DNA of 64,000 nt from Plasmodiophora brassicae (Eukaryota): positions 248,001-312,000 of the forward strand of contig CP145415.1 of assembly GCA_036867785.1 (NCBI GenBank), read 5' to 3'. Under the pieces are notes generated by a model that worked only from the letters and a program-made list of their open reading frames with translations, had not been told where the DNA came from and did not search any database. The position numbers and the translations under genes were made by a program. Below, in pieces: positions 4,800-5,222 of this stretch (position 1 is the first letter of the stretch; the number at the start of each line of letters is the position of its first letter).

Positions 4800-5211
4800 G
4801 ATCACGAGGATGTCAACAAATGTCACCGCAACCACCGCGACCCGCGGACGGAAGCGCGCCGGCGCAGTCCGCAACCCGCGGAAGCCGTCCGCAACCCGCG
4901 GAAGTTGCCTGCGCATTCCGCAACCCCGGAAGTTGCCTGCGCAGAAGTGCGTTTGTGGCACAACTGTAGAGACTGTTAATTGCGCGGTACGAAGCGGGAT
5001 CGGCGTGCGGCCAACGCCAACCAATGCAACGTTGCTTGATGGGGTACCGTTGACACAGACACATATGTTGGGACGACACGTGCCTATGGAATTGTATAAA
5101 GGCAGCGAATGGCTGGGCTGTGAGGACTGTCCGGAATAAACCGAGAACCCCGCGACGGACTTCGCCAGTCCGTCAAAGCGTTCGTTGCATCAGCTTGCCT
5201 GATCGTGACAT

Positions 5212-5222
5212 TTTGACGGACT
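5212..5222 (+). promoter_or_regulatory. Putative self-priming primer-binding site
   Basis: TTTGACGGACT, 1 nt after the 5' LTR, is the exact reverse complement of AGTCCGTCAAA at 5167-5177 inside the LTR. It lacks the TGG expected for tRNA 3'-end priming. Confidence 0.75.

What the first reader, a model, noticed from the sequence alone, without database searches (positions are those of the whole stretch)
5119..5222. Miniature LTR element with a Tf1-type self-priming signature
Seen: 1 nt after the 5' LTR, the 11-mer TTTGACGGACT is the exact complement of AGTCCGTCAAA (5167-5177) inside the LTR. There is no TGG tRNA-type PBS, and AATAAA lies about 27 nt upstream of 5167. The LTRs are identical and the TSD is perfect, so the insertion is recent. 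Known: S. pombe Tf1 primes reverse transcription by annealing the first 11 nt of its mRNA to the PBS. Inference: this is a tRNA-independent, non-autonomous element with 92-bp LTRs, mobilised in trans, with its TSS predicted at 5167. I know of no such description for this kind of protist, but I cannot search.
Basis: partly seen in the sequence, partly recalled or inferred. Interest (0 to 1): 0.85.

Follow-up and report, generated by a model that had tools for sequence, protein, structure and literature searches.

The report
Small self-priming LTR retroelement in clubroot protist
This is a small, gene-less jumping element in the clubroot pathogen that seems to start copying itself with a piece of its own RNA instead of a host tRNA, a trick already known from yeast, vertebrate and plant elements.

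Summary
Window 5119-6915 is a 1797-bp LTR retroelement. It has identical 92-bp TG..CA LTRs, a 5-bp target duplication (TGGGC) and a purine tract before the 3' LTR. It has no gag/pol. Its interior is a 147/155-bp tandem array plus a CGTC-rich tract.

One base after the 5' LTR, TTTGACGGACT (5212-5222) is the perfect complement of 5167-5177 inside the LTR. My controls put chance at about 1 in 10,000. No TGG-type tRNA site follows the LTR. The predicted RNA from 5167 folds into a 12-bp primer/PBS stem (z = -4.8). AATAAA lies at -32 to -27 of 5167.

The host is Plasmodiophora brassicae (99% ATG2 match). Public-run contigs show the LTR joined to many different flanks. One variant keeps LTR and PBS but has a different interior. 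Depth in RNA-like runs rises about 10-fold near 5176.

A Tf1-like self-primed, non-autonomous element is the best reading (about 0.7). Not tested: the transcription start, RNase H cleavage, the autonomous partner, the host tRNA set and LTR/PBS covariation.

Self-priming is already predicted widely (fungi, vertebrates, mosses, 12% of plant elements). This is therefore a new member of a known kind in a new host lineage.

The parts
5114..5118 (+). Target-site duplication, left copy (TGGGC)
   Evidence: Read directly. Identical to 6916-6920.
5119..5210 (+). 5' LTR, 92 bp, TG..CA
   Evidence: 100% identical to 6824-6915. In one search the contigs of runs X5 (record 26, 92 nt) and X10 (record 11) span exactly 5119-5210, so the assembly graph branches at both ends.
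5135..5140 (+). AATAAA, the only A/T hexamer in the LTR. It lies -32..-27 from 5167. Read here as a TATA-like box rather than a poly(A) signal (inference).
   Evidence: Its function is inferred from position only.
5154..5161 (+). GACGGACT in U3. It is the same 8 nt as the 3' part of the PBS and forms an 8-bp hairpin with 5167-5174 when no PBS is downstream.
   Evidence: motif positions. The fold of the 3' LTR context shows the 8-bp hairpin.
5167..5177 (+). Proposed self-primer AGTCCGTCAAA, taken as the first 11 nt of R. The TSS at 5167 is an inference.
   Evidence: Exact reverse complement of 5212-5222. Chance about 1e-4.
5189..5203 (+). Predicted small stem-loop in U5 (AUCAG / CUGAU) inside the primer-PBS loop
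   Evidence: Present in the MFE and centroid structures. It rests on a single sequence, with no covariation.
5212..5222 (+). Primer-binding site TTTGACGGACT, 1 nt after the LTR
   Evidence: In one search one X4 contig matches through 5223 and then continues for 58 letters unlike the window, so the PBS is kept beside a different interior.
5245..6497 (+). Internal tandem array, period 147/155 bp, 8.3 copies, 95% matches
   Evidence: This part has the highest depth in all 4 runs.
6528..6749 (+). CGTC/CCGT-rich microsatellite-like tract
   Evidence: Of the 34 plus-strand GTCCGTC in the window, 28 lie in the element.
6809..6817 (+). Polypurine tract AGAAGGGGA, followed by a 6-nt spacer (CTATTA) before the 3' LTR
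   Evidence: In one search a diverged relative in X5 has AGAAGAGGA plus a 6-nt spacer at the same place.
6824..6915 (+). 3' LTR (carries the second copy of the primer sequence at 6872-6882)
6916..6920 (+). Target-site duplication, right copy (TGGGC)

Best explanation
Window 5119-6915 is a recently inserted, non-autonomous LTR retroelement of Plasmodiophora brassicae. It is TRIM-like, but enlarged to 1.8 kb by an internal satellite array.

Proposed mechanism, by analogy with Tf1:
1. Transcription starts inside the 5' LTR at or near 5167, about 30 nt after the AATAAA box.
2. The first 11 nt of the RNA (5167-5177) fold back on the PBS (5212-5222) across a 34-nt loop.
3. The RNase H of a reverse transcriptase supplied in trans cuts after nt 11.
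4. The freed 3' end primes minus-strand DNA.
5. The strong-stop DNA jumps to R in the 3' LTR.
6. The plus strand starts at the purine tract (6809-6817).

Shown here: the anatomy, the significance of the complementarity, the fold, and the many insertion sites of the family. Inferred: the TSS, the cleavage, the trans-acting partner and the length of R.
For: - Retroelement hallmarks: identical 92-bp TG..CA LTRs, a 5-bp target duplication and a purine tract.
- No coding capacity: none of the 3 ORFs across the element matches a gag or pol family; the weak Pfam rows have 0 stretches that pass on their own.
- Complementarity: 11 Watson-Crick pairs plus one G-U pair between 5167-5178 and 5211-5222. 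Chance is 41 of 400,000 and 18 of 200,000 in two controls.
- No TGG follows the LTR.
- Fold of 5167-5240: -23.7 kcal/mol against -11.8 +/- 2.5 for shuffles, z = -4.78, and 0 of 200 shuffles fold as well. The same duplex wins in the 142-nt context, z = -2.88, with 1 of 200 as good.
- Contigs: LTR contigs end exactly at 5119 and 5210. Several different sequences lie before 5119 and behind 5210 in X4, X5 and X10. One X4 contig keeps LTR and PBS up to 5223 and then differs. A diverged relative in X5 keeps the purine tract and spacer layout.
- Contigs: depth in the RNA-like runs rises about 10-fold between bins 5152-5175 and 5176-5199 (X5 378 to 4126, X10 2190 to 29444). The one clearly DNA-like run does not rise (X4 23354 to 20834). 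One X10 contig starts at 5176 directly after Illumina adapter sequence.
- The mechanism itself is established for Tf1: the first 11 bases pair with the PBS and RNase H cuts between bases 11 and 12 (passage of PMC7175516).
Against: - No direct TSS or poly(A) data exist. Contigs cannot show RNA ends, the runs' RNA label is a guess, and 807 pieces and 54 loose ends were not shown.
- The adapter-joined end lies at 5176. That is neither 5167 nor 5178, the end expected after cleavage.
- U3 depth in RNA-like runs is about 10 times lower than R-U5. A full-length transcript should carry U3 at its 3' end, so this is not explained.
- Run X1, labelled 'DNA?', also rises (72063 to 115451) and has no cover over 4864-5103. 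Its kind is unclear.
- U3 would be only 48 nt, and R-U5 only 44 nt with the poly(A) site unknown. R may be very short.
- The purine tract is 6 nt away from the LTR, not adjacent to it.
- Only one copy could be read as sequence. No LTR/PBS covariation is available: one search lists no variant of at least 5% in 5119-5223 apart from a G put in behind 5156 in X10.
- The host tRNA set was not available.
- GTCCGTC is a common motif inside the element (28 plus-strand copies), so part of the match is low-complexity sequence.
Confidence: 0.7

Rival explanations
1. The element is a non-autonomous LTR retroelement, but it is primed by a host RNA, for example an internal tRNA fragment (as in copia, Ty5 or the plant half-tRNA users) or another small RNA. 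The match to the LTR would then be coincidental or secondary.
For: Half-tRNA priming without a TGG site is documented: about 2% of surveyed plant elements (passage of PMC6317226). The host tRNA set could not be examined because no genome is held.
Against: An 11-nt complement in the LTR at this position has a chance of about 1e-4. The two tRNA calls in the window give no match to 5205-5240 beyond 5 nt. Rfam finds nothing at or near its thresholds in 4900-7100: 2 rows, E = 0.15 and 0.9, both far below gathering score.
Confidence: 0.1
2. The primer/PBS pairing is a real RNA or DNA structure with another role, such as packaging or dimerisation, transcript stability, or a palindromic promoter site around the start (GACGGACT-TCGCC-AGTCCGTC). 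Priming would then work by some unknown means, as proposed for Dictyostelium Skipper.
For: The same 8 nt recur in U3 and form an alternative 8-bp hairpin with the primer when the PBS is absent. Skipper elements lack TGG and are thought to use an unconventional primer (passage of PMC5006619).
Against: The complement sits exactly where a PBS must sit, 1 nt after the LTR. It is 11 nt long, as in Tf1. Skipper, by contrast, has no complementary region in its LTR. The 3' LTR fold as a whole is not unusual: z = -1.37, and 20 of 200 shuffles fold as well.
Confidence: 0.12
3. It is not a mobile element at all, but a satellite array bracketed by a chance or recombinational direct repeat.
For: About 70% of the interior is a tandem array. 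No other copy lies in the window: the best off-element BLAST hit has E = 0.09.
Against: TG..CA ends, a 5-bp target duplication and a purine tract are all present. In one search the 92-bp unit appears as its own contig, joined to several different left and right flanks in three runs, at depths hundreds of times those of the flank contigs.
Confidence: 0.03

Closest known systems
Tf1 / Tf2 (S. pombe) and Tj1 (S. japonicus), self-primed Ty3/gypsy elements
   Same: There is no tRNA-type PBS. A PBS next to the 5' LTR is complementary to a stretch inside the LTR. The match is 11 nt, the length reported for Tf1 (passages of PMC7175516, and PMC4600332). A small stem-loop is predicted between primer and PBS. 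That Tf1 needs a U5-IR-like stem-loop is known to me only from a paper title seen in reference lists and from recall.
   Different: This element has no gag/pol. Its LTR is only 92 bp and the loop is only 34 nt. The host is a rhizarian protist. The TSS and the RNase H cut are untested. Relatedness of the unknown partner's RT/IN to the Tf1/sushi clade could not be tested.
Tcn1 clade (Cryptococcus, mosses) and the plant TAR Ty1/copia lineage, predicted self-primers
   Same: Self-priming is inferred from the sequence alone, as it is here (passages of PMC6317226).
   Different: Those are autonomous elements of fungi and plants. This one is a gene-less derivative in Rhizaria. Which superfamily its partner belongs to is unknown.
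[quoted passage not shown]
   Same: It has short LTRs, no coding capacity, and a PBS and purine tract. It depends on a partner in trans and is apparently highly expressed, like the Echinococcus TRIM (title and abstract seen in the listing; passages of PMC4717578).
   Different: At 1797 bp it is longer than the usual TRIM (size limits recalled, not checked), because of a 1.25-kb internal satellite. The PBS is self-complementary rather than tRNA-type. In the listing no paper reports a self-primed TRIM as a finding; the bivalve paper only mentions the idea.
Dictyostelium Skipper
   Same: It is a protist LTR element without a TGG-type PBS.
   Different: Skipper has a polypyrimidine tract and no complementary region in its LTR. 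The present element has an exact 11-nt complement.

Membership tests
LTR retrotransposon (structural class) | Two direct terminal repeats ending in TG..CA | tested here: met
   5119-5210 and 6824-6915, 100% identical.
LTR retrotransposon (structural class) | Target-site duplication of 4-6 bp | tested here: met
   TGGGC at 5114-5118 and 6916-6920.
LTR retrotransposon (structural class) | Polypurine tract before the 3' LTR | tested here: met
   AGAAGGGGA at 6809-6817, but 6 nt from the LTR rather than adjacent. A diverged relative has the same layout.
LTR retrotransposon (structural class) | Dispersed copies with different flanks | tested here: met
   differing loose ends before 5118/5119 and behind 5210 in X4, X5 and X10. 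Summed depths are not copy numbers.
Non-autonomous / TRIM-like element | No gag or pol coding capacity | tested here: met
   none of the 3 ORFs matches a gag or pol family.
Non-autonomous / TRIM-like element | Miniature overall size (under about 1-1.5 kb; the limit is recalled, not checked) | tested here: not met
   The element is 1797 bp. The LTRs are miniature (92 bp), but the interior carries a 1253-bp tandem array. I therefore call it TRIM-like, not a TRIM.
Non-autonomous / TRIM-like element | An autonomous partner sharing LTR ends, PBS and purine tract | not testable with these tools
   No genome is held. Scans of metagenome, viral and prokaryote collections gave no related copy.
Tf1-type self-primed elements (mechanism) | No PBS complementary to a tRNA 3' end | tested here: met
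   No TGG in 5211-5240. The 2 window tRNA calls do not match. The full host tRNA set was not tested.
Tf1-type self-primed elements (mechanism) | PBS beside the 5' LTR complementary to a stretch within the 5' LTR | tested here: met
   11 of 11 nt, with chance about 1e-4.
Tf1-type self-primed elements (mechanism) | The complementary stretch is the very 5' end of the element's mRNA | tested here: inconclusive
   AATAAA lies at -32..-27. One search shows a depth step and an adapter-joined contig end at 5176 in RNA-like runs. Contigs cannot show RNA starts.
Tf1-type self-primed elements (mechanism) | RNase H cleavage after nt 11 releases the primer | not testable with these tools
   This needs biochemical or end-mapping data.
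Tf1-type self-primed elements (mechanism) | Supporting RNA structure between primer and PBS | tested here: inconclusive
   A 5-bp stem-loop at 5189-5203 is predicted. It rests on a single sequence, with no covariation.
Tf1/sushi clade of chromoviruses (phylogenetic family) | RT/RNase H/integrase (and chromodomain) grouping with Tf1/sushi | not testable with these tools
   The element encodes no protein and its partner is unknown. Membership is therefore not claimed.

The most novel reading that the evidence does not exclude
P. brassicae carries a high-copy, strongly transcribed and currently active family of miniature LTR elements. Their 92-bp LTR packs a promoter, an 11-nt self-primer and R-U5 into the smallest self-priming LTR known. 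The partner would be either a Tf1/sushi-type chromovirus that reached Rhizaria by horizontal transfer or an unrelated element that evolved self-priming independently. In either case the family, with its internal satellite, would be a main driver of the structural variation seen between clubroot isolates.
Probability: 0.25. Interest if true: 0.6.

Novelty: new member of a known kind. Interest (0 to 1): 0.4.

Why it matters
Self-primed reverse transcription has been shown only in fission-yeast elements. Elsewhere it is predicted from sequence, in fungi, vertebrates, mosses and some plant copia lineages. A clear signature in a rhizarian would widen its known host range. It would also give a very compact natural substrate for studying the mechanism: a 56-nt primer-loop-PBS hairpin.

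For clubroot genomics, published genome papers report only Gypsy/Copia totals. A precise model of an abundant, apparently young non-autonomous family would help in two ways. It would allow insertion polymorphisms between isolates to be annotated, and it would provide strain markers.

This does not open a long-standing question, and a specialist would be mildly rather than greatly surprised.

Tried and rejected
- Whole genome: not held. The genome-wide searches for copies, a partner and tRNAs were therefore impossible.
- Earlier notes of this scan: none by place, sequence or words.
- Metagenome scan with a 19-mer across the LTR end and PBS: 2 loci (L001, L002). Both are chance matches in unrelated AT-rich or coding DNA. 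The LTR does not align to them.
- Viral and prokaryote-genome scans with a 24-mer across the primer: 0 and 0.
- Other copies or solo LTRs in the window: none; best E = 0.09. The other direct repeats are gene-family or segmental duplicates, not LTR pairs.
- Rfam on 4900-7100: only 2 sub-threshold rows.
- Pfam on the 3 internal ORFs: only repeat artefacts.
- First chance control: discarded because it sampled the element itself. Redone.
- First protein search for the host (transhydrogenase ORF): no close hit, because the length window excluded the full-length protein. The host was identified.
-, parts without cover (X1 and X5 over 4864-5103, X10 over 4864-4959): holes prove nothing.
-, X10 flank contig (record 10): it stops at 5118 with 45 unaligned letters that were not shown. 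It may be an empty site or a paralogue; I cannot tell.
-, 59-61-nt contigs such as X1 record 4, which starts at 5167: these have the length expected of single-variant bubbles of the assembler, so they are not RNA ends.
-, joint 5210 to 5267 in X4 (one contig, side 28): possibly a nested insertion. Not pursued.
- I laid only 4600-5300, because the tool turns away stretches with long repeats. The 3' LTR, the poly(A) site and an empty-site joint were therefore not examined.
- Primary Tf1 papers: not held.

Full report
**Observation.** Two 92-bp repeats, 5119-5210 and 6824-6915, are 100% identical and begin with TG and end with CA. They are flanked by TGGGC at 5114-5118 and 6916-6920. One base after the 5' repeat, TTTGACGGACT (5212-5222) is the perfect reverse complement of AGTCCGTCAAA at 5167-5177, and of its twin at 6872-6882. 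One search found 3 matches in the window against 0.02 expected, and 0 of 100 shuffles reached 3. AATAAA lies at 5135-5140. No TGG occurs in the 30 nt after the repeat.

**Chance.** I asked how often a complement of at least 11 nt to the LTR starts within 6 nt of a fixed point. It did so in 41 of 400,000 random 30-mers of the window (element excluded) and in 18 of 200,000 shuffled LTRs. That is about 1e-4. An earlier control was discarded because it sampled the element itself.

**Anatomy.** The element spans 5119-6915 (1797 bp).
- After the PBS comes a 22-nt linker.
- Next is a tandem array at 5245-6497 (period 147, some units 155, 8.3 copies, 95% matches).
- Then a CGTC-rich tract at 6528-6749.
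- Then a purine run AGAAGGGGA at 6809-6817, separated from the 3' LTR by 6 nt.
- The three ORFs that cross the array match no gag or pol family. Their weak Pfam rows have no stretch that passes on its own, and I take them for repeat artefacts.
- Rfam gives only two rows far below threshold.
- There is no other copy or solo LTR in the 64-kb window; the best off-element hit has E = 0.09.

**Host.** The window is nuclear DNA of Plasmodiophora brassicae. The C-terminal 489 residues of the ATG2 ORF (33680-38146) are 99% identical to a protein named for that species. Pfam shows ATG2 and a mitochondrial-type transhydrogenase among 7 ORFs scanned. No whole genome is held for the window.

**Structure.** RNA from 5167 to 5240 folds so that 5167-5178 pairs with 5211-5222, giving 11 Watson-Crick pairs plus one G-U pair. 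The stem closes a 32-nt loop region that holds a 5-bp stem-loop (5189-5193 with 5199-5203). The energy is -23.7 kcal/mol against -11.8 +/- 2.5 for 200 dinucleotide shuffles (z = -4.78); none of the shuffles folds as well. The same duplex is chosen when the whole LTR is included (z = -2.88; 1 of 200 as good). In the 3' LTR there is no PBS downstream. There the primer sequence pairs with GACGGACT at 6859-6866 in U3 as an 8-bp hairpin, although that region's fold as a whole is not unusual (z = -1.37; 20 of 200). All of this rests on one sequence, so there is no covariation support.

**Other copies, seen only through public-run contigs.** I laid 4600-5300 on four coded runs. I left the array out because the tool turns away long repeats.
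- Flank contigs have depths of about 4-290. Contigs on the LTR, PBS and array sum to thousands up to 900,000. The tool warns that these sums are not copy numbers.
- In X5 and X10 a contig spans exactly 5119-5210, so the assembly graph branches at both LTR ends.
- Different sequences precede 5118/5119 and follow 5210 in X4, X5 and X10 (agreement 0.62-0.63 where several contigs are pooled). The LTR therefore sits at several sites.
- One X4 contig carries this locus's own purine-tract region before 5119, and another bridges the left flank into the LTR (4929-5145). The insertion is thus present in that run.
- One X4 contig matches through 5223, one base past the PBS, and then goes on for 58 letters unlike the window. 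This is a relative with the same LTR and PBS but another interior.
- One X5 contig places a diverged but alignable purine-tract region (AGAAGAGGA plus a 6-nt spacer) before the LTR.
- No variant with a share of at least 5% is listed within 5119-5223, except a G put in behind 5156 in X10.
- 807 pieces and 54 loose ends were not shown.

**Hints on transcription, all weak.** X5 and X10 are guessed to be RNA. X5 has no cover over the intergenic stretch 4864-5103 and X10 none over 4864-4959, whereas X4 covers all 30 bins. X1, labelled 'DNA?', behaves like X5 and X10 in this respect.
- Between bins 5152-5175 and 5176-5199 the depth rises 378 to 4126 in X5 and 2190 to 29444 in X10. It goes 72063 to 115451 in X1 and 23354 to 20834 in X4.
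- One X10 contig (depth 1555) starts at 5176 directly after Illumina adapter sequence.
- This fits an RNA 5' end at or a few bases before 5176, and so a start near 5167. It does not prove one. It also leaves unexplained why U3, which a full-length transcript carries at its 3' end, is about 10 times lower.
- AATAAA at -32 to -27 of 5167 is better read as a TATA-like box than as a poly(A) signal. Cleavage 10-30 nt after it would leave almost no R. This last point is my inference.

**Mechanism.** The best-supported reading is a non-autonomous LTR retroelement that primes minus-strand synthesis with its own 5' end, as Tf1 does. In Tf1 the first 11 bases pair with the PBS and RNase H cuts between bases 11 and 12 (passage of PMC7175516). 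Tj1 is read the same way from sequence (passages of PMC4600332). For this element, the anatomy, the significance of the match, the fold and the retention of the PBS in one variant are shown. The TSS, the cut, the length of R and the trans-acting partner are inferred. I give this reading 0.7.

**Rivals.**
- Priming by a host tRNA fragment or small RNA (0.1). Only the two tRNA calls of the window could be compared, with no match beyond 5 nt. The 94-nt 'tRNA-Arg' call looks doubtful.
- A structural or promoter role for the pairing, with another primer (0.12).
- Not a mobile element at all (0.03).

**Comparison with what is known.** Self-priming is established for Tf1. It is predicted for the Tf1/sushi group of fungi and vertebrates, for Tcn1, for the moss Tcn1 clade and for the plant copia lineage TAR. 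In one survey it was predicted for 12% of plant elements (passages of PMC6317226). A bivalve TRIM paper lists further fungal self-primers (passage). Dictyostelium Skipper lacks TGG but has no complement in its LTR (passage of PMC5006619).

P. brassicae genome papers give only class totals: Gypsy and Copia dominate, with repeats at 11-14% of the genome (passages). One paper says nothing on nuclear LTR elements (passages).

The searches joining Plasmodiophora with 'LTR' or 'primer binding site', self-priming with 'protist', and TRIM with self-priming returned no paper describing such an element. This covers only the held library.

I do not claim membership of the Tf1/sushi clade, because there is no protein to place. 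By size the element is TRIM-like rather than a strict TRIM.

**Verdict.** The element is a new member of a known kind in a new host lineage. Interest is moderate (0.4).

Noticed in passing
window 5154-5174 (and 6859-6879): A near-palindrome, GACGGACT-TCGCC-AGTCCGTC, straddles the proposed start site. Its left arm repeats the last 8 nt of the PBS. It could hide the primer in the 3' LTR or act as a promoter site.
   Followed up: partly
window 5245-6497: The element's interior is a 147/155-bp satellite. It has the highest summed depth of all parts in all four runs laid. It may also exist as free arrays, or it may show how satellites arise inside retroelements.
   Followed up: partly
window 5156 (run X10): In run X10 the whole LTR contig carries an extra G behind 5156, in the left arm of the U3 hairpin. 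This is a strain or copy variant that leaves primer and PBS untouched.
   Followed up: no
window 4960-5118 (run X10, record 10): A flank contig with 8 differences and 1 gap over 159 nt stops at the insertion point with 45 unaligned letters. It may be an empty site in a diverged isolate or a paralogue.
   Followed up: no
window 4867-4943: Two short tandem repeats (20 and 28 nt, about 2 copies each) lie about 180 nt upstream of the insertion site.
   Followed up: no
window 19850-21737 versus 30045-31570: Several dispersed direct repeats of 40-137 nt at 83-95% identity (families D5, D8, D10-D12, D15) suggest a duplicated gene or segment. One ORF there has a weak protein-kinase match.
   Followed up: no
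window 14783-14964 and 11374-11553: A perfect 25-nt tandem repeat (about 6 copies) and a 60-nt tandem repeat (3 copies) lie inside very GC-rich (about 70%) ORF-dense DNA.
   Followed up: no
window 17153-17246 and 43442-43517: ARAGORN calls a 94-nt tRNA-Arg(CCT), which looks doubtful in GC-rich ORF sequence, and a normal-looking 76-nt tRNA-Ala(AGC).
   Followed up: partly
window 33680-38146: The public protein matching this nuclear ATG2 ORF at 99% carries '(mitochondrion)' in its source name. That looks like an annotation slip in the source.
   Followed up: no
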